Shown here: one piece after another, positions 6,136 to 36,111 of the stretch
Numbering within the stretch: the first letter of the stretch is position 1
Layout: each line of letters opens with the position of its first letter
Sequence record: KF147891.1
DNA length: 64,000 nt
Source: Pseudomonas phage PaBG
Reading direction: 5' to 3' (one strand)
Translations under genes and position numbers: made by a program
The notes under the pieces: generated by a model
The model's input: only the letters and a program-made list of their open reading frames with translations
Told to the model about the DNA's origin: nothing
Databases searched by the model: none

Positions 6136-6170
6136 CTCAGTATAACACACCGGCGGATGAGTGTCGATGG
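6136..6170 (-). promoter_or_regulatory. sigma70-type early promoter cassette B (leftward)
   Basis: On the - strand: TCGACA-N17-TGtTATACT (5/6 match to the -35 consensus, extended -10). The leader with hairpin caagcATCATgcttg and SD is conserved with cassette A. Confidence 0.6.
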
Positions 6171-6203
6171 AGATAGCGGTTATGTTTATAGCGCAGGTAA
6201 CGA

Positions 6204-6230
6204 CAAACCCCGACACTAGGCCGGGGTTTG
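6204..6230. terminator. intergenic stem-loop (terminator-like hairpin)
   Basis: 9-bp stem caaaccccg/cggggtttg with 9-nt loop. Lies between the upstream gene stop (6466) and promoter B. Same hairpin family as 12079-12095. Confidence 0.4.
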
Positions 6231-6465
6231 TTTGATCACAGTTCGCGCAGTTCGCGCTGGATTTCACGATCAGCAATGCGGCGCTCCGCTCTATGGCAGA
6301 GGGTCTTGAGTTCGCGCCCGTAGCCGATGCTACTGAACGGGCGACGACTCCAGAACTCGCCGGGTTGTTTGCTGCCGTGTTTGGTTCTGCTCATGGTGGT
6401 TCTCCGAATATGACGGGAATGTCATATTCGGATAGTACGGTTGGTCATAGCGGACCTCCTTGGTG

Positions 6466-6951
6466 TTATATCACGTTGCCGACATCGATGTTCTTCTGCG
6501 ACGCGAAGTCAGCAGGTCGCTTGTACTGTTCCTGCGGAATGTGACGGCCGTCTTCGTCGAGGTAACCCCACTCGTACTCTTTGGGCTTGCGTGGATGAAC
6601 GATGATCGTCCAGACGCCGCCCTTGGGGATACTGATGATGCGATGATAGCGCAGCCGTGCGATGTTGCACCAGCGGAACGCGGTGTGCAGCACCTCGCGA
6701 GTCACAGGCTTTTGACAATCGCAGTCGGGCACAGTGACGACCTGCTCCTCGACATACCAGCCTTTGACAACCATCGACTTGAACCCGTACGGGTGGTTGT
6801 GATGGATGCGAGTGTCGACCATCTTGATGTGGTGCAGCCGCACGCAAAACGGCAGATTCCACTCAGGCGGTACGATGTACCAGCGGTCCATGTAGCGACC
6901 GATGTTACGGTTGCGGTGCAGACCAATCAGTGCTTTGAATTTTTGCAACAT
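6466..6951 (-). CDS. hypothetical protein (His-rich HHxxxxxxHHNH segment)
   Basis: ORF 6466..7158 trimmed to the first ATG (MLQKFKALIGL...), which abuts the stop of the upstream gene. The GTG-started extension looks non-coding. Confidence 0.45.
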   Translation of the reverse strand: MLQKFKALIGLHRNRNIGRYMDRWYIVPPEWNLPFCVRLHHIKMVDTRIHHNHPYGFKSMVVKGWYVEEQVVTVPDCDCQKPVTREVLHTAFRWCNIARLRYHRIISIPKGGVWTIIVHPRKPKEYEWGYLDEDGRHIPQEQYKRPADFASQKNIDVGNVI

Positions 6952-9602: not shown

Positions 9603-11618
9603 TTAGTCCTCCAGACCCAGCAGACGGCGACGGTATACAGCATCTTCTGCAACGACGCCACGGAACCAGAGTTCTTGCTCGTGGTTGGCGAACGGATTGA
9701 TGCGAATGAGATTGCGGTGTTCAGGCGAGAACGCGATCGGTTCTAGGAAAGTCTCATCGACCTCACCCCAGCCCTTGATGCGAACGATGTCCTTGTCCTT
9801 GACTGCCTTGGGTGCGGCTTTACGGCACTCATCGAAGGTCATGCCACCGTAGAGTTTGCCGTCATGGAGCACAGCATACAGCGGAGCCTTGACGCACCAG
9901 ACGCGGCCTTCTTTGAACAGGTCTGGCAGCAGTCGGTAGATCGCCGCTAGGAACAGTACGGCAATGTGCCCACCATCCGGGTCCGGATCGACCAGGAAGA
10001 TGATGTTGCCAGTACGCAGATTGTCGGTCGACAGACGCGGGTTCTCAGCTTTCGGATCGAGCGTCTTGATGTCGGCGCCCAGGCTGATGAGCATGTTCTG
10101 GATTTCTTCGTGACCCAGAATCTTCGCCAGGGTCGCTTTCAGTGCGTTCAGTGGCTTACCGCCAGCACCCAGCACTTCCTGATAGTTCGCGTCTCGGGCG
10201 TCGATTGCAGTACCTGCGGCCGAGTCACCCTCAACGATGAACAGCTCGCGCTCATGTGGCTTGGCCTTGTCGGCGACAGCAAGTGCGCTCGGCAGACTGG
10301 AGCCCTTGATCGACTTCTTCGCGTCAGCCATGGACTTGACGACAGCAGCGAGTTCTTCACGGCCCTTGTTCATCACCAGTGCGCGCTTGATGATGGTCTT
10401 CGCAACGCGCTGGTTGGCTTTGAAGTACTCCTCGAACACTGGCAGCATTGCCTCGTGAACTTCGCGGTCGACCTTCGAAGCCAGCTTGTCTTTCACCTGC
10501 GAGGTGTACTGGGCGCCGTGCATACGCCAGTCAAACATACCAACCAGACCGATCAGCAGGTCAGAACCAGAGAATCCATTGCCGCCTTTCTTCTTGCCCT
10601 TGGGCTGAGTCATGTACGGCTTGATCGCAGCCATCAGGGCGCTGGTAAATCCGGTGACGTGCCAGCCACCATCGACAGTCGGCGACGTGTTCACGAACGT
10701 CAGGAAGTGGTCGGCATCCGGATGGTCAGCCCACACGACAGAGCAACTGATGTTGTCGGTCTTGAACGTCATGGGCTTGCCGATCATGCCCAGTTCGCGT
10801 TCCTCACACATTGCCTTGGGTACCCAAGCCAAGTCCTTCTTGTTCAGGAAGGTAAACGCTTTGGTCTTGCCGCCCTTGATGACCTTGAAGCGAATCTCCA
10901 GACCTGGGTTCAGGTTCGCCATGTTCTTCAACCACATGGCAATCGGCTTGGCCTGGGGCGAGGCATGCACATAATCTTTCGGCAGGGCCTTACCACGACG
11001 GGCAGACTCAGACACGACGGTCTGGTCGAGCTTGCCCGCGATGATGGTGCCGTACTTGCTCTGCTTCATCGACAGGCGCGAGGCCACGTCCTTGTCGATG
11101 CTCTTGACCTTGATCGGGTCTTTACCCTTGGTTGTGATTTCGCCTTTCGAGAACGACTGGAAGGCGCACTTGCCGTTGTACATACTCCAGACACGCAACT
11201 CCTCGCACACGGCGTTCACCGCCGCAACACCAACGCCGTGAGTACCGGCCGAAGTCTTGTACGAATCGGAGTTGAACTTGCCACCTGCGTGGGCGCGAGA
11301 GAACGCGGCCGTCATGATGGTCTCTTTCGTCCCGTCTTTCAACTTCTTGTAGTCGGTCGGGATACCGCCAGCAGCGTCGGCGACGATGTGGAAGTCGGCG
11401 TCGTAGTCGAGGATGACCTCGATCAACTTGTTACGACCGGCGATGGCCTCGTCGTATGCGTTGTCTACCTCTTCCTTGATGACACGGTACGCCATGTCAT
11501 GACCGAGGTTACCCAAGTACATCGTGGGGTTTATACGGATGCCTTGGAGGCCCTCCGCGATGACGAAGCCCTCCTGAGAGGCAGACTTCTTCCCCTTCTT
11601 GATCTTTTCCTTAGCCAT
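9603..11618 (-). CDS. type II DNA topoisomerase, GyrB-like ATPase/Toprim subunit (T4 gp39-like)
   Basis: GHKL ATPase motif GTHGVGVAAVNAVC and Toprim motif LFIVEGDSAAGTA. Adjacent to and co-directional with the A subunit. Confidence 0.85.
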   Translation of the reverse strand: MAKEKIKKGKKSASQEGFVIAEGLQGIRINPTMYLGNLGHDMAYRVIKEEVDNAYDEAIAGRNKLIEVILDYDADFHIVADAAGGIPTDYKKLKDGTKETIMTAAFSRAHAGGKFNSDSYKTSAGTHGVGVAAVNAVCEELRVWSMYNGKCAFQSFSKGEITTKGKDPIKVKSIDKDVASRLSMKQSKYGTIIAGKLDQTVVSESARRGKALPKDYVHASPQAKPIAMWLKNMANLNPGLEIRFKVIKGGKTKAFTFLNKKDLAWVPKAMCEERELGMIGKPMTFKTDNISCSVVWADHPDADHFLTFVNTSPTVDGGWHVTGFTSALMAAIKPYMTQPKGKKKGGNGFSGSDLLIGLVGMFDWRMHGAQYTSQVKDKLASKVDREVHEAMLPVFEEYFKANQRVAKTIIKRALVMNKGREELAAVVKSMADAKKSIKGSSLPSALAVADKAKPHERELFIVEGDSAAGTAIDARDANYQEVLGAGGKPLNALKATLAKILGHEEIQNMLISLGADIKTLDPKAENPRLSTDNLRTGNIIFLVDPDPDGGHIAVLFLAAIYRLLPDLFKEGRVWCVKAPLYAVLHDGKLYGGMTFDECRKAAPKAVKDKDIVRIKGWGEVDETFLEPIAFSPEHRNLIRINPFANHEQELWFRGVVAEDAVYRRRLLGLED

Positions 11619-24227: not shown

Positions 24228-24303
<76 letters not shown>

Positions 24304-24325
24304 TATTCTCTGGAGATACACGAAC

Positions 24326-24799
24326 ATGCCGCAAGTTTCTGCGCCAGAAGGCGATGCGCTACTCGACCTCGCCAACATGCCTGATCCTGCCATCGACGAT
24401 GCGTTCGATCTTCACCTGATCGAGGCGAATGACGGCGTATGTCGTGCGGTCGCGCCGATCTTCAAGTCCCTGCAACTGGCGCTGTCCGATATGAGTTACA
24501 CGGACAACGGTGCGCAGTACAAGGAAGAAACTGGACATCGCGGTGCGCTGACGCTGGAGTTCTTCAACAACGTCGGTGGTCAGCAGTGGATCGACGGTTG
24601 CGACGCGCTCATCGCCGAACTCGATGCCGTTGTATTCCACGTGTACCATGCCAACGGCGAGCTGTACAGCGAACTCCGCTTCTCTGGCTTGACCGAGCCG
24701 GAGTTCACCCGCGAGTTCTCGCACAGCGATCCGACAGTGCAGGTCCTGCAGTACGTCTGGCTGTTTGCCGACGTCAAGGAAACTGTGAAAGAGCAGTAA
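24326..24799 (+). CDS. hypothetical acidic protein
   Basis: 157-aa ORF with SD ggaga directly after tRNA-Thr. Confidence 0.45.
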   Translation: MPQVSAPEGDALLDLANMPDPAIDDAFDLHLIEANDGVCRAVAPIFKSLQLALSDMSYTDNGAQYKEETGHRGALTLEFFNNVGGQQWIDGCDALIAELDAVVFHVYHANGELYSELRFSGLTEPEFTREFSHSDPTVQVLQYVWLFADVKETVKEQ

Positions 24800-25111
24800 A
24801 GAACATCCGACCGCCGATTGCGTGCTCGTCCCACGTGATCGACGGTTTTGGCAGCGACTCCGCTAAGCTGCCGACCAGATGGGTGTGCGGAAGGGTTCGG
24901 CGGAGGTAGCAACTTCGCCGTCGATTGGCCAGTGCAGCGCGTCCTCAGCGTACTCGTCCTACGCAGTCCTCAGCGCTGTACCGCCGTTAGCGTTTACCAA
25001 GCGCCTGCCGAATGCCTGCTCGTCCCAGGATTGGCTGGCCAAAAGACGCAAAGCCCTGCTCGACTTTCCGGTGGAGTAGTAACCGGCTCGATTACTTGAA
25101 GGAGAACAGGC

Positions 25112-25348
25112 ATGTTCCTTTCGCTTTGCCTTGGGCTTGCTCTGGTGTGCGTTGAGCCGACTGCTCCGCCTACACGACCAGATGTCGTGTACTACCAGAC
25201 AGAGACCCGCATGGTTGCTGTTCGGGAATACACCGAACCAAAAGAAGTCGCCGCACTTCCGGAACAGAGTGGCGGTGCGCCCTATCCACGATCAGCGCCT
25301 AACGACCGCGGTCGTGAAGGCCACCGATGTACCATCGGGGTTGCCTAG
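25112..25348 (+). CDS. hypothetical small exported protein
   Basis: SD aggaga. N-terminus MFLSLCLGLALVC is signal- or lipoprotein-like. Confidence 0.3.
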   Translation: MFLSLCLGLALVCVEPTAPPTRPDVVYYQTETRMVAVREYTEPKEVAALPEQSGGAPYPRSAPNDRGREGHRCTIGVA

Positions 25349-26105
25349 CTGTCCGGAGCTTCCGCGATCCCGCCCCAAACCGAAACACCACATCGCTAGG
25401 CTTAACGGCCAACAAAATCGCTGAGAGCGAATGAAGTGCGCGAGAAATCGTAGGCACTAAGAAAGGGCAAGGCGGCACGTTAGAGAACAAGGCAAGAGGC
25501 TGACTCGCTGGATTTAGCGACCAGATGCGCCGGGAAACAAACCTCTGCCGCCTGCCAACCTAAAGCGGACTGATGAGTGGTTCAAGTCCACATGGCGAAA
25601 GCCTCGGGTGAAAGGCCCACGAAACTCAAACGAGTATCCGCATGAACGCCGCTCCTGGATGAGCGGTGGGTTCAAGTACACCGACCCACTAATCGGGTCG
25701 TTTCTCGGAGCTGCTTCTGCTGAGATTTCTGTGCGTAGTGAGAAGCCATAGGAGCCTTCGGATACCTGGTCGGCTCATGCCGATAGCGCTTTTTCATCGG
25801 CGCTATCGTACAGGGTTATGGTGGTCATGTGAAACACAAGCACATGCACGCTGCACTCGTTCCCGCCCGCGAGTTCCACCATGCCTGCGGTGAAAGCCAC
25901 AGGTGCAGCCTATTTATGCCATCACGCTCGGCAACGTGCTGAGAAGAAAGAAACGATAAGGCGAGTCTACATACGCCGATCGGCCGCATAGCAGCCCATT
26001 GTGGCAGCCGCATAGTGCCGATTGCCGTTGCGACCAAGCACTTGGACACAAACGCTTCTTGAGTCGTCGAGCGTGATGGCACCCTATTGAACAGAGGTAA
26101 CACGT

Positions 26106-26288
26106 ATGTGTATTTGCCGCCGTGCATGGTTCCTGATTGTCGTCAGCGCATTGTACCTGTTGGGTTGCGTTGTCGCATGGTCCATGGGTTGTCTGAATGT
26201 TTACGTCAACCCGGCACAGCTGGTATACGTTGCCGTTCTCTCTGTTCCGCTGTGGTGCAAGTCAGTAGGACGTTTGCTTCACATGTGA
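26106..26288 (+). CDS. hypothetical small membrane protein
   Basis: 60 aa with two hydrophobic segments. SD agagg. The overlapping ORF 26087..26296 was rejected. Confidence 0.3.
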   Translation: MCICRRAWFLIVVSALYLLGCVVAWSMGCLNVYVNPAQLVYVAVLSVPLWCKSVGRLLHM

Positions 26289-26294
26289 GTCTGT

Positions 26295-26388
26295 GACCCA
26301 GTAGCTCAGTTGGTAGAGCGCGTGAACGCCTGCGCCGATAGCGGGAGTAACGTCATAGAGGTCGAGAGTTCAAATCTCTCCTGGGTCT
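26295..26388 (+). tRNA. aberrant tRNA-like element (possible tRNA pseudogene or non-canonical tRNA)
   Basis: Perfect 7-bp acceptor stem (GACCCAG/CTGGGTC), canonical D arm (TAGCTCAGTTGGTAGAGC) and T arm (GAGAG-TTCAAAT-CTCTC). There are 43 nt between the D and T arms. The only 5-bp stem with a 7-nt loop (CCTGC-GCCGATA-GCGGG) is displaced 8 nt and lacks U33. Confidence 0.35.
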
Positions 26389-26394
26389 GCCTAT

Positions 26395-26405
26395 TTCTGT
26401 AAAGG
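26395..26405 (+). promoter_or_regulatory. TTCTGTAAAGG promoter-like motif
   Basis: Variant of the recurrent TGTAAA motif directly upstream of ORF 26406. Confidence 0.3.
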
Positions 26406-26615
26406 ATGTACACGATGTTGCCGTCAATGCACTTTCCACTAAAGCGTCCTGTGCTTACTCCAGAAGAAGCCAGTGCGTCGCGTGCCAGAACCCTTGAGGC
26501 TATTCGCAAATGCCGCGAAGCCCAAGCTGAACTGGAGCGAGTTTGCCGTGAGAAAGGCATTGAGATTCCGGTGATGGTCTGTCGTTCTAGTTTCCGAGTT
26601 CGTTCGGGTCGTTAG
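26406..26615 (+). CDS. hypothetical small protein
   Basis: 69 aa. The 3' end runs into the tRNA-Lys gene. Confidence 0.3.
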   Translation: MYTMLPSMHFPLKRPVLTPEEASASRARTLEAIRKCREAQAELERVCREKGIEIPVMVCRSSFRVRSGR

Positions 26616-26681
26616 CTCAGTTGGTAGAGCATGGCGCTTTTAACGCCGTGGTCGTTGGTTCGAGTCCAACACGACCCACCA
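26606..26681 (+). tRNA. tRNA-Lys (anticodon TTT)
   Basis: GGGTCGTTAGCTCAGTTGGTAGAGCATGGCGCTTTTAACGCCGTGGTCGTTGGTTCGAGTCCAACACGACCCACCA. Acceptor stem and D arm identical to E. coli tRNA-Lys. Confidence 0.8.
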
Positions 26682-26689
26682 GTTTCATA

Positions 26690-26765
26690 GGCCCCATAGT
26701 CGAGCGGTTAAGACGCTTGCCTGTCACGCAAGAAATCGCGGGTTCGATTCCCGCTGGGGTCGCCA
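26690..26765 (+). tRNA. tRNA-Asp (anticodon GTC)
   Basis: Anticodon arm CTTGC-CTGTCAC-GCAAG. T arm GCGGG-TTCGATT-CCCGC. Encoded CCA. Confidence 0.75.
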
Positions 26766-26766
26766 T

Positions 26767-26843
26767 AGGACGTTAGCTCAGTTGGTTAGAGCATCTGACT
26801 TTTAATCAGAGGGTCCTGGGTTCGAGTCCCAGACGTCCTACCA
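26767..26843 (+). tRNA. second tRNA with anticodon TTT (tRNA-Lys-like)
   Basis: AGGACGTTAGCTCAGTTGGTTAGAGCATCTGACTTTTAATCAGAGGGTCCTGGGTTCGAGTCCCAGACGTCCTACCA. Anticodon arm TCTGA-CTTTTAA-TCAGA. Separated from tRNA-Asp by 1 nt. Confidence 0.65.
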
Positions 26844-28621: not shown

Positions 28622-28688
28622 GGAGCCAATGGCTCCCTTTTCCTTTGGCCGTGGTAATTTCTCCGAATCGAACATGAGGAGATTTGCC

Positions 28689-29192
28689 ATGCTTGGATTA
28701 TTCGGCAACGTGACTGTGAAGAAAGGCAAGCGGAAACGCAAATTCAAGAAGTACCGCCAGTACGAATACGATTTCTACGGGCGCAAGCTGGTGCTGCAAG
28801 GCTACGAAGCACAAGCGCTTGAGTACCTTGTCGAAGTCGGCGGGTTCGATCCTGCGGACATCAAGACCGAGTGCGAGTTCGGCGACGCCCTGAACATCCG
28901 TTACAAGTATTCGGGCAAATGGCGTTCCTACATGCCTGACATTTTCATCCGCAACCACAACATCATCGTCGAAGTGAAGTCGAAATCCACGATGGGCTTG
29001 TTGAACAACAAGAAGCGTGGTTGGTCGATGAACCAAGCCAAGGCGAAGGCGTGCCATGCCCGCGGTTTCAAGTTCTGCGTGCTTCTGATGACCGACTCAG
29101 GCAAGCGCATTCCGCTGCCGAAGAACTGGCCGCTGATGAAGAAGGCGGAGTGCCTGCGCATCATGCGTGAGGAGCTTGGAGTTCGCATCTAA
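28689..29192 (+). CDS. PD-(D/E)XK family nuclease, homing-endonuclease-like (paralog of 41438..42262)
   Basis: YMPDIFIRNHNIIVEVKSK gives PD...EVK. The C-terminal 110 aa align with the C-terminus of the 41438..42262 product. Confidence 0.5.
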   Translation: MLGLFGNVTVKKGKRKRKFKKYRQYEYDFYGRKLVLQGYEAQALEYLVEVGGFDPADIKTECEFGDALNIRYKYSGKWRSYMPDIFIRNHNIIVEVKSKSTMGLLNNKKRGWSMNQAKAKACHARGFKFCVLLMTDSGKRIPLPKNWPLMKKAECLRIMREELGVRI

Positions 29193-29200
29193 ACTGTAAA
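29190..29200 (+). promoter_or_regulatory. AAACTGTAAAC promoter-like motif
   Basis: About 40 nt upstream of the ATG at 29232. Confidence 0.35.
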
Positions 29201-29231
29201 CTCCAGCTATACCAACACAGAGCACACGGAC

Positions 29232-29879
29232 ATGAGCATTACCTACAAGTACGGAAACGGCAAGTTGATCGGCTACCGTTCCGTAGACAAGTTTCATGGT
29301 GGCCTGTCGTTCAAGTTTCATCCAGACGGCGGAGACTCGTTCGATCGGTTCATCGACAAGGGTTTGATTCTCGAAATCAAAACTCAGTACGGTGAGCAAA
29401 CGATCGCGCTGAAACGGAACGACTACCGCGTAGTTCCCGAGCTGTGGAACTGCACCACGCTGATTTTCCAGAGTAACGAGTTGGCGCGCTCGCTCCACCT
29501 TGCTCTCGACGTTGAAGGCTTCCTGCACGTTTCGACACACAGCACGGCGACCCTTGCCGCTGAGTTGGCGAGCACCATCACGCACCAGCTGGCAACACCG
29601 TTCATGAAGCGCAAGCAGATTGACGTGCATCTGCGTAGTGAGCCCAGCGTCATCGCGCATTCCATTCTTCGGTGCATCGGGCTCAACCGATTCGCACCCG
29701 GCATGGACGTCAAGACGTTCTACCAACAGCATACGCCAGAAGCAGCCTACTCTGCGCTGTGTGCGTGGCTGAGCAACAAAGACCTTCGCGTGAACTTCCT
29801 GCCGCATGATGGCACGAAGCGCGCCGCATTCGTTTCTCGCATTGGCGAGAATGTTTTGGAGTTCGCCGAACAGGCGTAA
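29232..29879 (+). CDS. hypothetical protein
   Basis: 215-aa ORF. Confidence 0.45.
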   Translation: MSITYKYGNGKLIGYRSVDKFHGGLSFKFHPDGGDSFDRFIDKGLILEIKTQYGEQTIALKRNDYRVVPELWNCTTLIFQSNELARSLHLALDVEGFLHVSTHSTATLAAELASTITHQLATPFMKRKQIDVHLRSEPSVIAHSILRCIGLNRFAPGMDVKTFYQQHTPEAAYSALCAWLSNKDLRVNFLPHDGTKRAAFVSRIGENVLEFAEQA

Positions 29880-29895
29880 GCAAATAGGACCCATC

Positions 29896-30693
29896 ATGGC
29901 AGCCGTACGTAAACTATCCGACCTGAAAGAAGCTGGCTACAACCCGCGCGTCATCAGCAGCAAGCGCCTCAGCAACCTGCACAAGTCCATGACGACCTAC
30001 GGCGACCTGAGCGGCGTCGTGTTCAACGTCAAGACCAAGACCCTGATTTCCGGCCACCAGCGCCTCAAGCCGCTGCGTGATGCTGGCATCAAAGTCGAAA
30101 TCAAGACCAAGCCCATCACCGACAAGTTCGGCACTGTAGCCGAAGGCTACGTCGTCGCCAAGACCAGCGCCGGCGAGCTGCGCATCCCGTACCGCGAAGT
30201 ATCCTGGAGCGACAAGAAAGCCGAGTACGCTGCCAACATCGCTGCAAACGCTCACGGCGGTGACTTCGACCGCACCAAGCTCGGTACCCTGCTGGCTGCT
30301 CTGGAGAAGGGCAAGTCGTTCGACATCGACGTTCTGGGTCTCGATCCGTTGAGCGTGCGCAGCCTGATGCCGAAGATGCCGAACGTCGAAGGTAGCGGTG
30401 ACGATGACGGTGAATCGTTCCAAGAGTACGGCGAGGACAGCTTCGAGTTCGATCATCAGTGCCCGAAGTGCAAGTTCCAGTTCAACTCCAGCTCTGCAAG
30501 CAAGCCCAAGAAGGACAAGCCGCAACCCAAGGCGCCGAAGCTCGACGTGAAGAAGGCCAAAGCCGAAGTCAAAGCCAAGAAGATCAAGGCTGAGAAGAAG
30601 ACCGACAGCAAGGCCAAGTCCAGCGCCGCAAAAGAATCGCTGAAAAAAGCGAAGTCCAGTAAGCTCAAGGCCAAGATCAAGAAGGCCAAGTAA
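29896..30693 (+). CDS. ParB N-terminal (ParB/Srx-like nuclease) domain protein with a Lys-rich C-terminal tail
   Basis: Start MAAVRKLSDLKEAGYNPRVI after SD agga. The LISGHQRLKPL motif resembles the ParB/sulfiredoxin DGHHR box. C-terminus has CPKCKF and about 70 residues of K/A repeats. Confidence 0.5.
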   Translation: MAAVRKLSDLKEAGYNPRVISSKRLSNLHKSMTTYGDLSGVVFNVKTKTLISGHQRLKPLRDAGIKVEIKTKPITDKFGTVAEGYVVAKTSAGELRIPYREVSWSDKKAEYAANIAANAHGGDFDRTKLGTLLAALEKGKSFDIDVLGLDPLSVRSLMPKMPNVEGSGDDDGESFQEYGEDSFEFDHQCPKCKFQFNSSSASKPKKDKPQPKAPKLDVKKAKAEVKAKKIKAEKKTDSKAKSSAAKESLKKAKSSKLKAKIKKAK

Positions 30694-30704
30694 GTAGGTC
30701 AGCC

Positions 30705-31712
30705 ATGGAAAAGAAAATCGTCAAGATACCTTCGATGAAGAAGATCAACGCTCTTCCGAAGGCATTCAAAGGCATCAGTTCGTTCTCCGGTTGTGGCGGG
30801 AGCTCCACTGGTGTGAAGATGGCTGGCGTCCAAGTGCTGCTCGCAACCGAGTTCATCAAGCCAGCCATCGAAACCTACGAGAAGAACCACAAAGGCACCA
30901 TCGTCATCGGTGAAGACATTCGCAAGGTCGACTGGGAGTCGTGGCGCAAGGAGCTCAAGCTCAAGCGCGGCCAGCTGGACTTCTCCGAAGGCAGTCCGCC
31001 GTGCAAGTCCTTCTCGACCTCTGGCACTGGCAGTGACGACTGGGGCAAGGAGAAACTCTACTCTGAGAACGTCTACCAGCGCACCGATGACCTCTTCTAC
31101 GAGGAAATGCGCAAGCTGGAAGCGTTCATGCCCAAGGTCTTCGTCTGCGAGAACGTCAAGGGCATGGTTGAGGGTGACGCCAAGGGTTACTTCATCGAAA
31201 TCCTGCGTGACCTTAAAGCAATCGGGTATAGCGTGAAGGCGCAGGTGTTGAACGCTGCCCGTCTCGACGTACCCCAAGCCCGCGAGCGCGTGATCTTCGT
31301 TGGTGTGCGTAACGACTTGGTGAAGAAAGGCTTTGAGCCTGTGTTCCCCAAAGCGAAGCCGTACGAGGTGAACGTCAACGACGTCCTACCTCACATTGCG
31401 TACCTCAAGTCGAAGTACCGAGGCGACATCAAGTACGTCCCAGCTTCGATCCCGAGTCCTACGATCGTGGCGAGCGATGGTACCAACAGTGAGACTGCCG
31501 GCTTCTCGTCTGGCGGCTTCATTGAGACTGTCGATGGCGAGCGCCGCAAGTACACCATCGACGAGTTGAAGAAGATTTTCACCTTCCCGGATGACTTCAT
31601 CTTCACTGGTACCTACAAGCAGCAGTTCGAGCGTCTCGGCCGCTCAGTTCCGCCACTCATGATGTATCGCGTAGTCGCGGAGCTTCGCCGCCAGATTCTG
31701 GAGAAGCTGTAA
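30705..31712 (+). CDS. DNA (cytosine-5)-methyltransferase family enzyme with an atypical PCK catalytic motif
   Basis: Motif I FSGCGG, motif II ATEF, motif IV SPPCKSFS (canonical is PCQ), motif VI ENV (FVCENVKG), motif VIII QARER, motif X RLGRSVPP. Confidence 0.8.
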   Translation: MEKKIVKIPSMKKINALPKAFKGISSFSGCGGSSTGVKMAGVQVLLATEFIKPAIETYEKNHKGTIVIGEDIRKVDWESWRKELKLKRGQLDFSEGSPPCKSFSTSGTGSDDWGKEKLYSENVYQRTDDLFYEEMRKLEAFMPKVFVCENVKGMVEGDAKGYFIEILRDLKAIGYSVKAQVLNAARLDVPQARERVIFVGVRNDLVKKGFEPVFPKAKPYEVNVNDVLPHIAYLKSKYRGDIKYVPASIPSPTIVASDGTNSETAGFSSGGFIETVDGERRKYTIDELKKIFTFPDDFIFTGTYKQQFERLGRSVPPLMMYRVVAELRRQILEKL

Positions 31713-31715
31713 CCC

Positions 31716-31742
31716 AAGGGAGTCTTCGGACTCCCTTTTTAT
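31716..31742 (+). terminator. intrinsic terminator followed by AAACTGTAAAT (31751-31761) and TATAAT (31768-31773)
   Basis: GGGAGUC-uucg-GACUCCC followed by UUUUUAU. Exact copy of the 16234 terminator. Confidence 0.8.
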
Positions 31743-31793
31743 GGCCTCCGAAACTGTAAATCCACAGTATAATCCATTGGTTGGAGCCTAAAC

Positions 31794-32570
31794 ATGAGCC
31801 AAGAACCTGTAGTAGACAACCACGTCCCAGGCGAACGCTGGGAGTTCAACGAGGACGTAGCCAAGCAGTTCGACCTGATGCTGGAGAAGTCGATCCCCGG
31901 CTACGGACAGATGCGTGATCTGGTGTATCGCATCGGCAAGCGTTTCGTTCAGTCGCCGTCGAACGTCATCGATCTGGGTGCTAGCCGTGGTGAAGCCGTG
32001 GCGCGCTTTATCGCTGAGTTCCCGCACTCTGACTTCTTCCTCTCGGAAGTTTCCGAGCCAATGCTGGCTGAAATGCACGAGCGCTTTGCTGATCTGCCGA
32101 ACGTGTTTCCTGTGAGCTACGATCTGCGCAAGACGTCCGAGCAGATTGCCACAGCGATTCGTAATCCGAAGTTCGGCATGGCCCACGCTGGGCTGAACCC
32201 TGTTGCGTCGCACACTACGCTGGTGCTGTCTATTCTCACCATGATCTTCGTGCCCATCAACTTCCGCCCGAGCATCTACAAGGGCGTGTACGACGGACTG
32301 GCCCGCGGCGGCGCGTTCATCGTTGTCGAGAAGGTGCTTGGCAACTCCGCCGCCATGCAAGAGCTGCTGGTTGACGTGTACCACGAGTACAAGCACGACA
32401 ACGGCTACAGCTGGGAAGCCATCGAGCGCAAACGCGCCGCCCTCGAAGGCGTGCAAGTACCTGTGAGCCATGAGACCAACATCGATATGTTGCGTGCCGC
32501 TGGCTTCCGCAACGTCGAATCGTTCTGGCGCAACATGAATTTCGTGGCCTATCTGGCTATCAAGGATTAA
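31794..32570 (+). CDS. cmoA: carboxy-S-adenosyl-L-methionine (Cx-SAM) synthase CmoA homolog
   Basis: About 45% identity to E. coli CmoA in two blocks: WEFNEDVAKQFDLMLEKSIPGYGQ..FVQSPSNVIDLGASRGEA vs [42 protein letters not shown], and GGAFIVVEK...YKHDNGYSWEAIERKRAALE...AAGF vs GGALVLSEK...[20 protein letters not shown]...KAGF. Confidence 0.8.
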   Translation: MSQEPVVDNHVPGERWEFNEDVAKQFDLMLEKSIPGYGQMRDLVYRIGKRFVQSPSNVIDLGASRGEAVARFIAEFPHSDFFLSEVSEPMLAEMHERFADLPNVFPVSYDLRKTSEQIATAIRNPKFGMAHAGLNPVASHTTLVLSILTMIFVPINFRPSIYKGVYDGLARGGAFIVVEKVLGNSAAMQELLVDVYHEYKHDNGYSWEAIERKRAALEGVQVPVSHETNIDMLRAAGFRNVESFWRNMNFVAYLAIKD

Positions 32571-32572
32571 CG

Positions 32573-33025
32573 ATGCGTGAACTCAAGCTACTCCGCAAGC
32601 GCGTAAAGCAGGCTTGGGCGGCAGAAGCTGACCTGAGTCCGAATGAGCGAGAACTGCACCAGTGGCAGTTCCTGTCGATGCAGAGCAACGTGCCCTATGT
32701 CGTCGGTAAGGGTGCCGCCAACACGTTCTTCTATCGTGTCGGTACTACTGGTGAAATGACCTACGTGATGCCAGACGAAATGTTTGCCATCATGGACAAG
32801 TGGGTCAACTCTAGCTTTGCTTTGTTCGCCATCACCAAGACGCGCGACATCAAAGACGCCCCGTGCTCCACGGACATCAACGTCCTGCTGCAAAAGACGA
32901 AGGACAAGTACGTCGGTTATTTCATTGTCGGTATCACACCCGACCAGCGTGTAGTTCGCCTGCATGTATTGAAAAGCGGACTCCGCAAAAACCAATGGGT
33001 GCCCTTCAAGCCGAAGAAACGGTAA
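32573..33025 (+). CDS. hypothetical protein (within the modification cassette)
   Basis: 150-aa ORF directly after the cmoA-like gene. Confidence 0.45.
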   Translation: MRELKLLRKRVKQAWAAEADLSPNERELHQWQFLSMQSNVPYVVGKGAANTFFYRVGTTGEMTYVMPDEMFAIMDKWVNSSFALFAITKTRDIKDAPCSTDINVLLQKTKDKYVGYFIVGITPDQRVVRLHVLKSGLRKNQWVPFKPKKR

Positions 33026-33034
33026 GGAAAGACA

Positions 33035-33859
33035 ATGGACCAGAAGACTCGTTCCAAGAAATTGCGCCGAGCGCTCGTTGCGCAGGCGAAGTCGGTGGGC
33101 GTCAAGAATGTAGCCGTTCCCATGAGCAGCGGTGTGGACAGTCACTGTGCGCTGTTCGCCTGCCTCGAAGCTGGGTTGAGCCCGCACGTCTACTCGTTCC
33201 ATCTGGACGGCGTTGAAAGCCGTGACGTGCGTGTCGCCGAGAAGACAGCGGAAGCCTTCGATCTGCCGTTCACCAAAGTGACGCTACCCAATGGCAAGAA
33301 GCAACTCATCAAGGACGTCATCGAGCTTGCCCGTTTCGGCTGCCGTAGCAAGACGGACTTCGAGTGCTTCTGGCCAATGTGGCACTTGCTGCCGAAGATC
33401 AAGCAGAAGGCTTTCTTCACCGGCCATGGTGCCGACAGCCTGTACTGCCTTAGCCGCAAAGCTGTTCAACACTACGCCGGCCGCGAAGATGAATTTCGTA
33501 GGCTGGCTTTCTCGTCCAACAAAGCCTTCCAGAAGGGCTTGATCGAGAAGTGGTGTGAGACTAAGGGCAAAGGCAAAATCTACTGCCCGATCTTCTTCAA
33601 CCAGCAGACGCTTGCAATCTTCCAAGGCGCCAAGCCTGCTGATCTGAACAAGCCGATCCAGAAAGCCGTGAGCCGCATGGCGTTCGAGGAATACTTCGAG
33701 CATGTGCGCGTCTACGTTCACCAACCTTTCCAGTTGGGTGACACCGGCATCAAGATCGGCTTCGAGCAGCATCTGCTGGACAGCGAACTCAACACCAAGT
33801 CCTACAAAAGCGTTGTCGGCATTTATAATGAGCTGGTGCGCAACTACGGGAAGAAGTGA
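33035..33859 (+). CDS. PP-loop (adenine-nucleotide alpha-hydrolase) superfamily ATP pyrophosphatase
   Basis: N-terminal VAVPMSSGVDSHCALFA matches the PP-loop motif SGGxDS, as in asparagine synthetase, QueC, NAD synthetase and TilS. Confidence 0.55.
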   Translation: MDQKTRSKKLRRALVAQAKSVGVKNVAVPMSSGVDSHCALFACLEAGLSPHVYSFHLDGVESRDVRVAEKTAEAFDLPFTKVTLPNGKKQLIKDVIELARFGCRSKTDFECFWPMWHLLPKIKQKAFFTGHGADSLYCLSRKAVQHYAGREDEFRRLAFSSNKAFQKGLIEKWCETKGKGKIYCPIFFNQQTLAIFQGAKPADLNKPIQKAVSRMAFEEYFEHVRVYVHQPFQLGDTGIKIGFEQHLLDSELNTKSYKSVVGIYNELVRNYGKK

Positions 33860-34473
33860 CCATGTTCATCCAAAACTATATCCACTACAAGACCGATCCC
33901 GCCTCGTGGGTGCTGAACACGCTGTTCCCGCTGACTGCGGAAGAGTACGGCGACCAGCAAGCTTGGCTCGATGCTGGAGCTCCAGACGAACCTCCGATGA
34001 CTCGCGTCCTGAATGCTGAGCAAGATCGACTGTTCAAGCTGGTACACAAGCACGCCAGTGACTACTACGCGCAGAACAAGCCGTACCTGAACTCCGTCGC
34101 AATCATGATGGCAATGACCGCGCTCTACGGTGAGCAGCAAGTTCTCGGCCATTCGTATCGCGGTGCATTCCTGTTTGCCGGCAACTGCGAAGCGATGTTC
34201 AGTCGTCTGGTGATGCAAGGTCAAGGTGCAATGGATTTCATGCGCTACAACCTTGCACAAGAAGTAACTGGTGACCCGATGCTCGCGGTAATTCGCGCCG
34301 AGCAACTGTGCCACAAGTACGGCCTGCGTAATCACCGCATGCCAACCGGTGACGGTACCGACATCGTGTTCAGCCTTGAGCCGATCGCCAACCCGGTGTT
34401 CGATAACGTCAAATACATTCCATCCGTCGCTGGCTACTATACCATCGTCGGCAAAGGTGCAGCGAGGGATTAA
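33856..34473 (+). CDS. hypothetical protein
   Basis: GTGA-coupled to the PP-loop gene. Likely ATG 6 nt downstream (MFIQNY). Confidence 0.45.
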   Translation: MTMFIQNYIHYKTDPASWVLNTLFPLTAEEYGDQQAWLDAGAPDEPPMTRVLNAEQDRLFKLVHKHASDYYAQNKPYLNSVAIMMAMTALYGEQQVLGHSYRGAFLFAGNCEAMFSRLVMQGQGAMDFMRYNLAQEVTGDPMLAVIRAEQLCHKYGLRNHRMPTGDGTDIVFSLEPIANPVFDNVKYIPSVAGYYTIVGKGAARD

Positions 34474-34475
34474 CC

Positions 34476-35537
34476 GTGGCCAAGAAAGACAAACTCAAGA
34501 AGAAAAAAGGTGATGTCAAGATCGATGTCACCGTCGAGAAGAAAAAGAAAAAGAAGGCGAAAGCCGAGGTAATGCCGATCGCGAAGGACAGCTACATCAT
34601 CGTTCGTGTCGGTAGCAAGCACAAGCTGGCACTCGCCATCAACCCGGAACGCGGTCGCGCTGTCATCGACGAAACTCTGGCGGACGACGAGCCACAGCAC
34701 ATCGAGTTCGACGAGAACAACCTGGTGTGCAACCTGGGCACCAAGCCCAAGGGTGGCGCTGCCTTCGGCGTGCGTATCGAACCCTACGTCTCCAGCGTCG
34801 AATCCAAGTACGGCCAGATGCACTTCTTCCGCGAGCTGGGTGACCTGGAGAAGAAAGCACTCAAGCGCGCACTGCGTCGCACCTACGACGGCATGCTGGA
34901 ACAGAACCTGAACGTCTTCCCGTTCACCCAGATGAAGATTACGCCGAAGCGCGGCAAGTACGCGGGTATGTATCTGTTCCGTCGCAAGTCTGGCGAGGTC
35001 TGGGATGCCGTTGTACTGCACCCGGAGACGTTCGAGGACACCAAGTTCAACGAGTACCTGCTGTACCACGAATACGGTCACGCTGTCTGGTACAAGATGA
35101 TCACTGCCAGCTACAAGGCCAAGTGGATCAAGCTCTACCACAAGCGCCTGGAGCTGATGAACATCCTGAAAGATCGTCTTGAGCCGATGCTGGACGAACT
35201 GCTCAAGTTCGCCGGCAGTCTCAAGGACTTCTACAAGGAACTCGAAGAGGAAGACCGCCTCGTGTTCCGTGAGGTGCTGTCGCACTACAAGCGCTACCAC
35301 AAGATGGATGGCTACTCGATGGACATCCTGCACATGGAAGACACTGAGAAGTTTGCTTCGATGTGGCCGAAGCGTGCAACTCTCGTTGAATCGCGCCCTG
35401 ACCTGAGCGAATATGCGATGGTCAAGCCTGAGGAGTTCTGGGCAGAAGCGTTTGCGTTCCACATGACTGGGCGCAAAATGCCCAAGGACATTACCAAAGC
35501 CATGGAGAAAACGCTGACTGCTTTGCAGAGCGTGTAG
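34476..35537 (+). CDS. HExxH zinc-metallopeptidase-like protein with a poly-Lys N-terminus
   Basis: MAKKDKLKKKKGDVKIDVTVEKKKKKKAKAEV followed by LLYHEYGHAVWYK (HExxH). Confidence 0.45.
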   Translation: MAKKDKLKKKKGDVKIDVTVEKKKKKKAKAEVMPIAKDSYIIVRVGSKHKLALAINPERGRAVIDETLADDEPQHIEFDENNLVCNLGTKPKGGAAFGVRIEPYVSSVESKYGQMHFFRELGDLEKKALKRALRRTYDGMLEQNLNVFPFTQMKITPKRGKYAGMYLFRRKSGEVWDAVVLHPETFEDTKFNEYLLYHEYGHAVWYKMITASYKAKWIKLYHKRLELMNILKDRLEPMLDELLKFAGSLKDFYKELEEEDRLVFREVLSHYKRYHKMDGYSMDILHMEDTEKFASMWPKRATLVESRPDLSEYAMVKPEEFWAEAFAFHMTGRKMPKDITKAMEKTLTALQSV

Positions 35538-35547
35538 AGACTCCCAC

Positions 35548-36111
35548 ATGAACGACCTTGCGACGTTAAAGTCCCTAACCTCGATCAAGCCCATTGCTAC
35601 ATTGGGCAACACACCAGGCACCACCATGTTCAATCGTTTCTTCTTTGAGCGACTGAGCGCATTCGGCTCTGTGAAAAATGGCATCGTCCTGACGATTAAC
35701 GACGAAGCCTTTGAAGATGTAGAAGACTGGGGTGAGTTCATCCAGACCCCGATGGGTAACGTGACGGTTCGCCGTGCTGTTACCGAAGATGACCTGCAGA
35801 GTCTGAGTTTGCCGGGTATGGCCCATCTTCGTCATGCAGGCGTGCGCAATTTTGCTCGCCTGTTATCTGACGATGCCGTGATCTTTCGGTTTGAGACTGC
35901 GCGTTGGCAAGGCGTTGAGTATCCGATCGAGGAATTGAATCGGTACTTTGAAACCCTGCGTCGCGCTTATCACCTGAGTGACGAGGCTGGCATCATCGAC
36001 GTGCCGATTCAGCTCGGTAGTGTAAACCACCGATATACGACCAGAGCGCAGATTGAATCTGTCCTCTACCCAATGGCGTACTACTTTTTTCGAGAAGATA
36101 CGGAGCTCTAA
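35548..36111 (+). CDS. hypothetical protein
   Basis: 187-aa ORF. Confidence 0.45.
   Translation: MNDLATLKSLTSIKPIATLGNTPGTTMFNRFFFERLSAFGSVKNGIVLTINDEAFEDVEDWGEFIQTPMGNVTVRRAVTEDDLQSLSLPGMAHLRHAGVRNFARLLSDDAVIFRFETARWQGVEYPIEELNRYFETLRRAYHLSDEAGIIDVPIQLGSVNHRYTTRAQIESVLYPMAYYFFREDTEL

What the first reader, a model, noticed from the sequence alone, without database searches (positions are those of the whole stretch)
30993..31016. C5-MTase catalytic motif IV reads PCK instead of the near-universal PCQ
In SPPCKSFS the residue after the catalytic Cys is Lys. A positively charged residue at this active-site position is what one would expect if the cofactor carries an extra carboxylate, as Cx-SAM does. 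Engineered C5-MTases have been reported to gain Cx-SAM use through a single introduced Lys; I recall this from the literature. The adjacent cmoA homolog makes this look like a natural adaptation rather than coincidence.
Basis: partly seen in the sequence, partly recalled or inferred. Interest (0 to 1): 0.7.

Follow-up and report, generated by a model that had tools for sequence, protein, structure and literature searches.

The report
Phage DNA carboxymethyltransferase (CmoX); Lys not the determinant
The unusual Pro-Cys-Lys motif is real and sits in a phage enzyme that almost certainly puts carboxymethyl groups, not methyl groups, on DNA cytosines, but this enzyme family was described in 2025 and its cofactor choice is set by an arginine elsewhere in the protein, with the lysine an optional lineage-specific variant.

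Summary
Observation confirmed. Window 30993-31016 encodes SPPCKSFS in a 335-aa C5-MTase ORF (30705-31712), and Lys101 aligns with the Gln of PCQ.

The window is Pseudomonas jumbo phage PaBG. The gene sits in a same-strand cluster: ParB-like, MTase, CmoA, ORF150, Asn-synthase-like ligase. This matches the CmoA/CmoX/CmoY system of Synechococcus phage S-B43 (Nat Commun 2025, PMC12783734; crystal 8YF3). That system makes 5-carboxymethylcytosine and then a glycine amide.

In that system the Cx-SAM carboxylate is held by Arg350, in motif X at the HhaI Asn304 position. PaBG has this Arg (Arg313, LGRSVPP). Validated SpCmoX has Ser after the catalytic Cys and still accepts only Cx-SAM.

Across 148 cluster representatives the two positions covary:
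- Motif X Asn goes with Gln (33/40).
- Motif X Arg goes with Ala 46, Ser 26, Lys 13 and Gln 2 (of 96).

None of 61 cmoA-adjacent viral MTases has Gln. Lys is essentially one clade and swaps with Ala, Ser and Leu in clusters that keep cmoA. PCK also occurs, rarely, in Asn-type MTases without cmoA.

Verdict: correct inference about the cofactor, wrong residue. This is a new member of a known family.

The parts
29806..30693 (+). ParB-like (ParB_N/ParBc) protein, 295 aa, immediately upstream of the MTase
   Evidence: phrog_620 'ParB-like partition protein' 3.4e-38. It is 43% identical to Erwinia phage Yoloswag gp42, which also precedes that phage's CmoX. PMC12783734 reports ParBc proteins in 1660 CmoX contigs. 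No Pfam hit at gathering score.
30705..31712 (+). CmoX-type DNA cytosine C5-carboxymethyltransferase homolog, 335 aa (annotated 'DNA cytosine methylase' in Pseudomonas phage PaBG)
   Evidence: PF00145 1e-51. Best PDB sequence hit is 8yf3_A at 5.4e-56. 35% identity to SpCmoX over the full length, E=1.5e-65. AF2 model pLDDT 90.5, and the top Foldseek PDB hit is 8YF3 at E=2.4e-27. 100% identical to P0001 from PaBG.
30993..31016 (+). Motif IV, SPPCKSFS: catalytic Cys100 (31002-31004) and Lys101 (31005-31007) at the position of HhaI Gln82
   Evidence: Ser-Pro-Pro-Cys is one of the two features used to define CmoX in PMC12783734.
31635..31655 (+). Motif X, LGRSVPP: Arg313 (31641-31643, CGC) at the position of SpCmoX Arg350 / HhaI Asn304 / M.MpeI Asn374. 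This is the inferred Cx-SAM carboxylate ligand.
   Evidence: Aligned 'rlgRsvPPlmm' against SpCmoX 'rvgRmvPPlmm' and HaeIII 'miGNaVP'. Arg is invariant in alignment A3, in 117/120 nearest homologs and in 58/58 alignable cmoA-adjacent viral MTases.
31794..32570 (+). CmoA homolog (carboxy-SAM synthase), 258 aa
   Evidence: TIGR00740 CmoA 7.6e-38, but 130.5 bits is below the equivalog cutoff of 193.3. PDB 1im8 (YecO) 4.5e-26 and 4gek (E. coli CmoA) 2.2e-25. 28.5% identity, E=8e-31, to the biochemically validated SpCmoA. phrog_4752 2.7e-74.
32573..33025 (+). ORF150, a conserved protein of unknown function between CmoA and the ligase
   Evidence: phrog_23597 (unknown function) 2.9e-77. Homologs sit at the same place after cmoA in PaBG-like contigs and in L252/L253. 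No Pfam or PDB hit. The single-sequence AF2 model is unusable, pLDDT 38.7.
33035..33859 (+). CmoY-like ATP-dependent amide ligase (Asn-synthase/PP-loop domain only, no glutaminase domain), 274 aa
   Evidence: PF00733 Asn_synthase 4.9e-6. 33% identity, E=1.2e-34, to SpCmoY, the 5cxmC-glycine ligase. The sequence carries the PP-loop 'SSGVDS'.
33856..34473 (+). ORF205, unknown. It overlaps the ligase stop by 4 nt and is possibly co-transcribed. Membership of the system is unproven.
   Evidence: No Pfam, NCBIfam or PHROG hit. No promoter-like site inside 29000-36000 and no + strand terminator-like site downstream of 29851 (the two + strand sites, at 29443-29459 and 29834-29851, lie at or before the start of the ParB-like ORF).

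Best explanation
The ORF is the PaBG ortholog of CmoX, a C5-MTase-fold enzyme that transfers the carboxymethyl group of carboxy-SAM (Cx-SAM) to C5 of DNA cytosine. The proposed pathway is as follows. The adjacent CmoA makes Cx-SAM from SAM and prephenate. CmoX attacks C6 with Cys100 and transfers the carboxymethyl group to give 5cxmC. The downstream Asn-synthase-like ligase (CmoY-like) then adenylates the new carboxylate and amidates it with an amine, which is glycine in S-B43 and unknown here. The ParB-like protein and ORF150 are conserved accessories of unknown role.

Cofactor selectivity is set mainly by Arg313 in motif X, which replaces the canonical Asn and pairs with the Cx-SAM carboxylate. 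The canonical Gln after the catalytic Cys packs against that Asn and the methyl group. Once Asn becomes Arg, the Gln is lost and the position becomes permissive (Ala, Ser, Cys, Lys, Arg, Leu). Lys101 is the variant fixed in the PaBG/Erwinia-jumbo-phage lineage. It may add a second positive charge near the carboxylate, but it is neither necessary nor sufficient for Cx-SAM use.

Shown: homology, motif residues, gene context, covariation. Inferred: enzymatic activity in PaBG, any contact made by Lys101, the identity of the amine.
For: Family assignment:
- The best sequence and structure matches are both 8YF3.
- All SpCmoX Cx-SAM contact residues are conserved: Phe27, Glu49, Phe50, Asp71, Cys100, Arg313, equivalent to SpCmoX F25, E47, F48, D69, C98, R350.
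- CmoA and CmoY homologs are adjacent on the same strand.

Determinant is Arg, not Lys:
- The crystal structure shows R350 contacting the carboxymethyl group, and R350N is inactive. Wild-type SpCmoX, which has Ser99, accepts only Cx-SAM (sequence).
- The engineered gain of Cx-SAM use is at the same motif X position.

Covariation:
- 148 representatives at 50% clustering. With motif X Arg (n=96): Ala 46, Ser 26, Lys 13, Arg 1, Gln 2. With motif X Asn (n=40): Gln 33, Lys 0.
- The Fisher tests were run on these representatives plus the PaBG protein itself (97 Arg-type). Gln versus non-Gln gives p=1.7e-22. Lys/Arg versus other gives p=0.006.
- A second search gave only the pairs (A,R) 60, (E,D) 31, (Q,N) 20 and (S,R) 2.
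- Motif X residue 313 is the top-ranked column by normalised mutual information with residue 101.

Context:
- Of the 61 C5-MTase ORFs next to cmoA in 60 viral loci, Arg is at motif X in all 58 in which that column could be aligned. Of the 59 with an alignable C+1 residue, Ala 27, Lys 13, Cys 11, Ser 8, Gln 0.
- None of the 120+ PCQ loci has cmoA.

Lability of Lys:
- At least 25 changes occur at this position among the 120 nearest homologs.
- Lys is one main clade plus singletons.
- Leu variants at 62% identity retain the CmoX-CmoY-CmoA cluster.

Pocket geometry: HhaI Gln82, Tyr254 and Asn304 lie close to extended transferable groups, and Q82A lowers methylation about 16-fold (PMC3526304).
Against: - No biochemistry or DNA chemistry exists for PaBG. 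The PaBG genome paper does not mention modification.
- The CmoA hit is below the NCBIfam equivalog cutoff.
- Lys/Arg at C+1 was found only with motif X Arg in the family-level sample (15/97 versus 0/40). Within the closest subclade the only substitution is Lys to Arg (3 of 23 at 75% identity or more). This hints at selection for positive charge and fits a real, if auxiliary, carboxylate contact.
- I could not obtain model coordinates, so the Lys101-carboxylate distance was not measured. The loop just after it (residues 105-109) is predicted with low confidence.
- The covariation counts are not phylogenetically corrected.
Confidence: 0.8

Rival explanations
1. One reading: Lys101 is itself an adaptive, direct salt-bridge partner of the Cx-SAM carboxylate, working as a second ligand together with Arg313. 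It materially sets cofactor preference or affinity in the PaBG lineage.
For: - The position lines the transferable-group pocket.
- Lys/Arg at C+1 occurs only with motif X Arg in the 148-representative sample.
- Lys-to-Arg is the only change among the homologs at 75% identity or more.
- A strict Glu/Asp pairing at the same two positions in another clade (31/31) suggests that charge at both positions can matter together.
- Cationic substitutions in the pocket enhance Cx-SAM use in engineered enzymes.
Against: - SpCmoX with Ser at this position is already exclusive for Cx-SAM.
- About 75% of Arg-type clusters have Ala or Ser.
- Lys swaps with Leu, Ala and Ser at about 60% identity in clusters that keep cmoA.
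- Lys is essentially one clade, so the association rests on few independent events.
- PCK also occurs with motif X Asn and no cmoA.
Confidence: 0.3
2. Lys101 has a structural or DNA-related role unrelated to the cofactor. For example, it could form a salt bridge to acidic residues of the target-recognition domain (such as Asp258 or Glu263), or contact a DNA phosphate, helping to close the catalytic loop in place of the lost Gln-Asn contact.
For: - HhaI Gln82 is described as contributing intramolecular contacts that stabilise the closed catalytic loop.
- Within Arg-type sequences, the Lys/Arg group is enriched for acidic residues at TRD positions 258 (0.78 versus 0.32) and 263 (0.70 versus 0.17).
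Against: - The enrichment is confounded by phylogeny, because the Lys group is mostly one clade with its own TRD.
- There are no coordinates to test proximity.
- The position tolerates Leu, Ala and Ser in close relatives.
Confidence: 0.2
3. The MTase is an ordinary SAM-dependent 5mC methylase with an incidental PCK. The neighbouring CmoA serves tRNA modification instead, supplying Cx-SAM to host CmoB for cmo5U34 on the phage-encoded tRNA-Thr(UGU) and tRNA-Ala(UGC).
For: - The window encodes tRNA-Thr(UGU) and tRNA-Ala(UGC) 5-7 kb upstream. From my own knowledge, these isoacceptors carry cmo5U34 in E. coli.
- PaBG annotates the CmoA homolog as a tRNA methyltransferase.
- PCK exists in Asn-type MTases.
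Against: - The MTase has Arg, not Asn, at the motif X position, plus all SpCmoX Cx-SAM contacts.
- SpCmoX does not accept SAM.
- A CmoY-like ligase is in the same cluster.
- Every cmoA-adjacent viral C5-MTase examined is Arg-type.
- No CmoB homolog was noticed in the cluster.
- A dual role for CmoA is not excluded.
Confidence: 0.04

Closest known systems
SpCmoX / SpCmoA / SpCmoY of Synechococcus phage S-B43 (Yang et al., Nat Commun 2025, PMC12783734; PDB 8YF3)
   Same: - Same three enzymes clustered on one strand.
- SPPC motif, motif X Arg, and the adenine/ribose contacts F, E, F, D are all conserved.
- CmoX 35% identical (1.5e-65), CmoA 28.5% (8e-31), CmoY 33% (1.2e-34).
- ParB-domain neighbour as in many CmoX contigs.
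   Different: - Lys instead of Ser after the catalytic Cys.
- Shorter protein (335 versus 372 aa) with a different TRD, so the target sequence (GC in S-B43) is unknown here.
- Gene order is ParB-CmoX-CmoA-ORF150-CmoY rather than CmoA-CmoY-CmoX.
- There is an extra conserved ORF150.
- The host is Pseudomonas and the phage is an unrelated jumbo phage.
- The amine ligated by the CmoY-like enzyme is untested.
Engineered carboxymethyltransferases M.MpeI N374K, M.MedI N377K, M.CviPI Y205K/R
   Same: A cationic residue is placed in the pocket around the transferred group of a C5-MTase and confers Cx-SAM use.
   Different: - The engineered cation is at the motif X position (equivalent to PaBG Arg313), not at the residue after the catalytic Cys.
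- The engineered enzymes retain SAM activity, whereas natural SpCmoX does not.
M.HhaI / M.HaeIII-type SAM-dependent C5-MTases (Dcm family), including the HhaI Q82A/N304A steric-engineering work (PMC3526304)
   Same: Same fold and the same ten motifs. Cys nucleophile, ENV Glu and QxRxR Arg are all present. The Gln82 and Asn304 positions form the pocket for the transferred group.
   Different: Both pocket residues are changed in PaBG (Gln to Lys, Asn to Arg). Its context includes cmoA and an amide ligase.
CmoX homologs of Erwinia/Dickeya/Yersinia jumbo phages (e.g. Yoloswag gp43)
   Same: Lys after the catalytic Cys (C-extein starts CKGFS), Arg in motif X, a ParB-like gene upstream and cmoA in the genome.
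   Different: The gene is interrupted by an intein inserted exactly before the catalytic Cys. cmoA lies about 14 kb away rather than adjacent.

Membership tests
CmoX (DNA cytosine C5-carboxymethyltransferase) | C5-MTase fold with catalytic Ser-Pro-Pro-Cys motif IV | tested here: met
   PF00145 1e-51. SPPC at residues 97-100. Foldseek top hit is 8YF3.
CmoX (DNA cytosine C5-carboxymethyltransferase) | Arg at the SpCmoX Arg350 position (motif X, replacing the canonical Asn) | tested here: met
   Arg313 in LGRSVPP aligns with SpCmoX VGRMVPP and with HaeIII GNAVP. Invariant in A3.
CmoX (DNA cytosine C5-carboxymethyltransferase) | Conservation of the Cx-SAM adenine/ribose contacts (SpCmoX F25, E47, F48, D69) and of the cytosine-contacting Glu (ENV) and Arg (QxRxR) | tested here: met
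   F27, E49, F50 and D71 by alignment. E149, R193 and R195 are invariant in A3.
CmoX (DNA cytosine C5-carboxymethyltransferase) | Genomic association with a phage-encoded CmoA | tested here: met
   The CmoA homolog starts 82 nt downstream on the same strand.
CmoX (DNA cytosine C5-carboxymethyltransferase) | Cx-SAM-dependent, SAM-independent formation of 5cxmC in DNA | not testable with these tools
   Needs an enzyme assay, or LC-MS/MS of PaBG DNA.
CmoA (carboxy-SAM synthase) | Scores as an equivalog of bacterial CmoA (TIGR00740 / PRK15451) | tested here: inconclusive
   Full-length matches at 7.6e-38 and 3.9e-27, but 130.5 and 95.3 bits are below the cutoffs of 193.3 and 285. The best PDB hits are CmoA structures 1im8 and 4gek. 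8e-31 to the validated SpCmoA. The 'KRxALEGV' segment is conserved.
CmoY (5cxmC amide ligase) | Stand-alone Asn-synthase-type PP-loop ATP-pyrophosphatase domain adjacent to CmoX/CmoA, homologous to SpCmoY | tested here: met
   PF00733 4.9e-6. 33% identity, 1.2e-34, to SpCmoY. Substrate amine not testable.
Ordinary SAM-dependent Dcm-type 5mC methyltransferase | Pro-Cys-Gln in motif IV together with Gly-Asn-(Ser/Ala)-Val in motif X | tested here: not met
   PaBG has Pro-Cys-Lys and Gly-Arg-Ser-Val. In relatives, Gln pairs with Asn in 33 of the 35 Gln-bearing representatives.

The most novel reading that the evidence does not exclude
The residue after the catalytic Cys and the motif X residue together form a two-residue 'cofactor code' in SPPC-type phage C5-MTases. 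Gln/Asn would mean SAM. (Ala/Ser/Cys/Lys)/Arg would mean Cx-SAM, with Lys101 acting as a genuine second carboxylate ligand that tunes affinity in the PaBG lineage. The strictly paired Glu/Asp class (31/31) and the Asp/(Leu,Met) class would then use other, still unknown, transferable groups, and so would mark undiscovered phage DNA modifications.
Probability: 0.2. Interest if true: 0.7.

Novelty: new member of a known kind. Interest (0 to 1): 0.3.

Why it matters
It predicts that the DNA of Pseudomonas jumbo phage PaBG, and of related Erwinia, Dickeya and Yersinia jumbo phages, carries 5-carboxymethylcytosine or an amide derivative. That bears on restriction evasion, on sequencing artefacts and on phage-therapy biology.

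For enzyme engineers, the natural variation is a ready-made mutational map of the Cx-SAM pocket. Arg at motif X is obligatory. The former Gln position tolerates Ala, Ser, Cys, Lys, Arg and Leu, but almost never Gln.

The system itself, however, was published in December 2025, so the finding extends a known family rather than revealing a new one.

Tried and rejected
1. Megablast of the cluster against the phage collection found nothing. PaBG is simply absent from that collection. Identity came from the protein search.
The accepted pattern fixes Gly-x-Pro-Pro-Cys-[K/Q]-x-Phe-Ser(TCN), so it undercounts MTases with other contexts. 23 of 38 K hits were chance matches in short ORFs.
3. My first regex for motif X picked the wrong Gly-x in many ordinary MTases, and an off-by-one column error occurred. 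Both were replaced by hmmalign-based columns.
4. Structure prediction gave a good CmoX model, but the tool returns no coordinates. The Lys101-Arg313-cofactor geometry therefore could not be measured.
6. I looked for a cofactor-synthesis gene next to the Glu/Asp-class MTases in five contigs and found only a ParB_N gene as a conserved neighbour.
7. The supplements of PMC12783734 do not mention PaBG, Pseudomonas or Erwinia, and its text does not discuss the residue after the Cys.
8. I considered and rejected that cmoA serves only tRNA modification (see rivals).
Full report
**1. Observation**

Window 30993-31016 (+) translates to SPPCKSFS. It lies in frame in a 335-aa ORF, 30705-31712. That ORF is a full-length C5 cytosine methyltransferase homolog (PF00145 E=1e-51; TIGR00675 1.2e-44).

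In HMMER alignments to solved structures, the motif aligns column for column with M.HaeIII GGPPCQSWS. Cys100 is therefore the catalytic nucleophile. Lys101 (AAG, 31005-31007) replaces the Gln of the canonical Pro-Cys-Gln.

**2. What the locus is**

The protein is 100% identical to the 'DNA cytosine methylase' of Pseudomonas jumbo phage PaBG, a 258-kb contig. PaBG is not in the local phage collection, which explains the empty megablast.

The gene sits in a tight same-strand cluster:
- A ParB-like protein, 29806-30693 (phrog_620 3.4e-38).
- The MTase, 30705-31712.
- A CmoA homolog, 31794-32570. It matches TIGR00740 at 7.6e-38, though below the equivalog cutoff. Its best PDB hits are CmoA structures 1im8 and 4gek.
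- A conserved unknown ORF150, 32573-33025.
- A stand-alone Asn-synthase-type PP-loop protein, 33035-33859.

No promoter-like site lies inside the cluster, and the only + strand terminator-like sites (29443-29459 and 29834-29851) lie at or before the start of the ParB-like ORF.

**3. This system is already described**

A full-text search found Yang et al., Nat Commun 2025 (PMC12783734). In Synechococcus phage S-B43:
- CmoA makes carboxy-SAM.
- The C5-MTase homolog CmoX transfers the carboxymethyl group to cytosine C5, giving 5cxmC at GC sites.
- The Asn-synthase homolog CmoY ligates glycine to that carboxylate.

The CmoX crystal structure with Cx-SAM (8YF3) shows Arg350 contacting the carboxymethyl group. 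Arg350 replaces HhaI Asn304 in motif X. R350N is inactive, and the wild type accepts only Cx-SAM. The authors retrieved 5,615 candidate CmoX sequences defined by SPPC plus Arg350, many with cmoA, a ligase and a ParBc protein nearby.

**4. The PaBG enzyme meets every sequence criterion for CmoX**

- 8yf3_A is its best PDB sequence hit (5.4e-56). HaeIII follows at 3.4e-22.
- 8YF3 is also the best structural match of a confident AF2 model (pLDDT 90.5; Foldseek E=2.4e-27).
- PaBG 'LGRSVPPLMM' aligns with SpCmoX 'VGRMVPPLMM', so Arg313 is the Arg350 equivalent.
- The SpCmoX contacts F25, E47, F48 and D69 are F27, E49, F50 and D71 in PaBG.
- Against sequences taken from the S-B43 record, CmoX is 35% identical (1.5e-65), CmoA 28.5% (8e-31) and CmoY 33% (1.2e-34).

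**5.

SpCmoX reads SPPC-S99. A Ser after the Cys is therefore compatible with exclusive Cx-SAM use.

The engineered 'single Lys' enzymes are M.MpeI N374K and M.MedI N377K (PMC12015181) and M.CviPI Y205K/R (PMC13288465). All place the cation at the motif X-equivalent position, not in motif IV.

**6. The motif IV position is nevertheless not irrelevant**

In M.HhaI, Gln82, Tyr254 and Asn304 lie close to extended transferable groups. Q82A lowers methylation about 16-fold and raises transfer of a larger group (PMC3526304).

I tested covariation in three samples.

(a) 148 representatives of 50%-identity clusters, from an exhaustive phmmer search, aligned to a family HMM:

| Motif X residue | n | Residue after the catalytic Cys |
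|---|---|---|
| Arg | 96 | Ala 46, Ser 26, Lys 13, Arg 1, Cys 2, Gln 2, Thr 2, Val 2, Ile 1, Leu 1 |
| Asn | 40 | Gln 33, Val 3, Glu 2, Thr 2, Lys 0 |
| Asp | 5 | Glu 5 |
| Leu or Met | 2 | Asp 2 |

The Fisher tests were run on these representatives plus the PaBG protein itself (97 Arg-type). For Gln versus non-Gln the test gives p=1.7e-22. For Lys/Arg versus other it gives p=0.006.

(b) A second search seeded on a Glu/Asp member gave only four pair states: (A,R) 60, (E,D) 31, (Q,N) 20 and (S,R) 2.

(c) Across 376 sequences (effective number 88), residue 313 is the top column by normalised mutual information with residue 101. It ranks ninth by raw mutual information, which favours high-entropy columns.

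On a rough neighbour-joining tree, the Gln/Asn to non-Gln/Arg switch occurred many times (11 and 14 Fitch steps). These counts are not phylogenetically corrected.

**7. Gene context**

At least 576 IMG/VR contigs encode a CmoA relative. Of the 80 fetched, 60 have a C5-MTase within 7 kb.
- In all 58 ORFs where motif X can be aligned, the residue is Arg.
- The residue after the Cys is Ala 27, Lys 13, Cys 11, Ser 8 and Gln 0.

Conversely, none of the 120+ IMG/VR loci matching G-x-P-P-C-Q-x-F-S has cmoA in the fetched DNA.

The same pattern with Lys gave 38 hits, of which 15 are real MTases.
- Nine are Arg-type. Five of them have cmoA in the fetched piece.
- Six are Asn-type with no cmoA: L010, L019, L036 and L039 (GGPPCKAFS with GNGVP), plus L027 and L041.

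So PCK is rare among ordinary MTases but not exclusive to CmoX.

**8. How constrained is the Lys?**

Among the 120 nearest homologs, Lys is 59, Ser 28, Ala 23, Arg 4, Leu 3 and Gln 0. Arg313 is present in 117 of the 120.

At 75% identity or more, the position is Lys 20 and Arg 3. Below that it interchanges freely, with at least 25 changes on a neighbour-joining tree.

Two relatives at about 62% identity, P0024 and P0026, carry Leu (SPPCLSFS). They still sit in CmoX, Asn_synthase, class-I MTase (CmoA-like) clusters.

At family level, Lys is one main clade plus singletons. That clade comprises PaBG-like phages and the Erwinia, Dickeya and Yersinia jumbo phages. In those jumbo phages the C-extein begins CKGFS, and cmoA lies about 14 kb away.

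**9. Interpretation**

The best-supported reading has three parts.
- Arg313 determines Cx-SAM use.
- The canonical Gln is incompatible with the Arg-plus-carboxymethyl arrangement and is lost.
- The position then becomes permissive.

Lys101 is the variant fixed in this lineage. The Lys/Arg-only pattern in the closest subclade, and the absence of Lys from Asn-type relatives in sample (a), leave room for an auxiliary electrostatic contact with the carboxylate. I put that at about 0.3. A structural role is an alternative, suggested by weak and phylogenetically confounded enrichment of acidic TRD residues. The tools gave no model coordinates, so I could not discriminate between these.

**10. Rival for CmoA**

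The window also encodes tRNA-Thr(UGU) and tRNA-Ala(UGC). To my knowledge these isoacceptors carry cmo5U34 in E. coli, so CmoA might also feed tRNA modification. This does not explain the Arg-type MTase or the ligase, and I rate it as at most a secondary role.

**11. Novelty and score**

The system and its cofactor determinant are published. PaBG is an uncharacterised member from a different phage lineage and host, with a different gene order, an extra conserved ORF and Lys at the former Gln position.

The tight two-position covariation, including the Glu/Asp and Asp/(Leu,Met) classes, is not discussed in the text I could read. It is the most interesting by-product.

Interest 0.3. New member of a known kind.

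Noticed in passing
Proteins P0309, P0338, P0347, P0360, P0382, P0389-P0413 and others; loci L249-L251, L254-L256: A coherent class of SPPC-type C5-MTase homologs has Glu after the catalytic Cys (SPPCEPFS) strictly paired with Asp at the motif X Asn/Arg position (RLGD[ASC]VPP), 31 of 31. They sit in phage-like contigs with a ParB_N gene directly upstream. No cmoA, ligase or other recognisable cofactor gene is nearby. Two acidic pocket residues would repel Cx-SAM, and the transferred group is unknown.
   Followed up: partly
Proteins P0084, P0261, P0362: Another small class pairs Asp after the Cys (SPPCDSFS) with Leu or Met at the motif X position (G[LM]SVPP).
   Followed up: no
L248 (Erwinia phage Yoloswag gp43, 4663-6771); P0241, P0244, P0245, P0247-P0249, P0252, P0278, P0285, P0292, P0335, P0350, P0354, P0385, P0066: Inteins of 140-400 aa are inserted exactly between Ser-Pro-Pro and the catalytic Cys of motif IV (SPP|CF..G...HN|CKGFS). 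The catalytic Cys therefore doubles as the +1 extein nucleophile. They occur in 16 of 148 cluster representatives and in the whole Erwinia/Dickeya/Yersinia jumbo-phage group.
   Followed up: partly
L194:5446-6999, L221:4866-6398, L187:5442-6998, L236:5071-6585 (each directly upstream of cmoA): 20 of 80 cmoA-bearing viral loci have no C5-MTase within 7 kb. In at least four groups unrelated at the DNA level, cmoA is immediately preceded by an ORF of about 510 aa. This ORF has a ParB_N domain plus a Rossmann class-I MTase-like domain ('VDFGAGKLNNTR..FEPY', C-terminal 'LPYPDG'; weak PF13489 hit). It has no DPPY motif and no Pro-Cys motif. It may be a different kind of Cx-SAM-using DNA-modifying enzyme. 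The 2025 paper says no non-C5 candidates were found next to cmoA.
   Followed up: partly
window 32573-33025: ORF150 is conserved directly after cmoA in PaBG-like contigs and in the more distant L252/L253 clusters (34-63% identity; invariant QWQ and VGKG.NT.F). It has no Pfam or PDB match and no usable model. It is absent from the S-B43 cluster.
   Followed up: partly
L252:9536-10501, L253:7020-8093 and 10077-11054, L239:9032-10998: Related CmoX/CmoA/ligase clusters carry extra enzymes: a PLP-dependent PALP enzyme, DUF1611 and an alanine-racemase-like protein. This suggests supply of amine donors other than glycine for the ligase. PaBG lacks these.
   Followed up: no
window 24228-26843: A tRNA cluster: Thr(UGU), Ala(UGC), Lys(UUU) twice and Asp(GUC). 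The Ala tRNA is 94 nt, unusually long, and has the lowest Rfam score (48.9 bits). Thr(UGU) and Ala(UGC) are cmo5U34-type isoacceptors in E. coli (from my own knowledge), a possible second use for phage-made Cx-SAM.
   Followed up: partly
window 28629-29192: A 187-aa ORF with DUF7487 (4.9e-14) and TnsA-like endonuclease N-terminal (3.7e-5) domains sits between the tRNA cluster and the modification cluster. It may be a homing-type endonuclease.
   Followed up: no
window 33856-35537: ORF205 (no hits) overlaps the ligase stop codon by 4 nt. It is followed 3 nt later by a 353-aa ORF matching phrog_17197 'peptidase' (1.2e-147) with a Lys-rich N-terminus. Whether either belongs to the modification system is unknown.
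   Followed up: no
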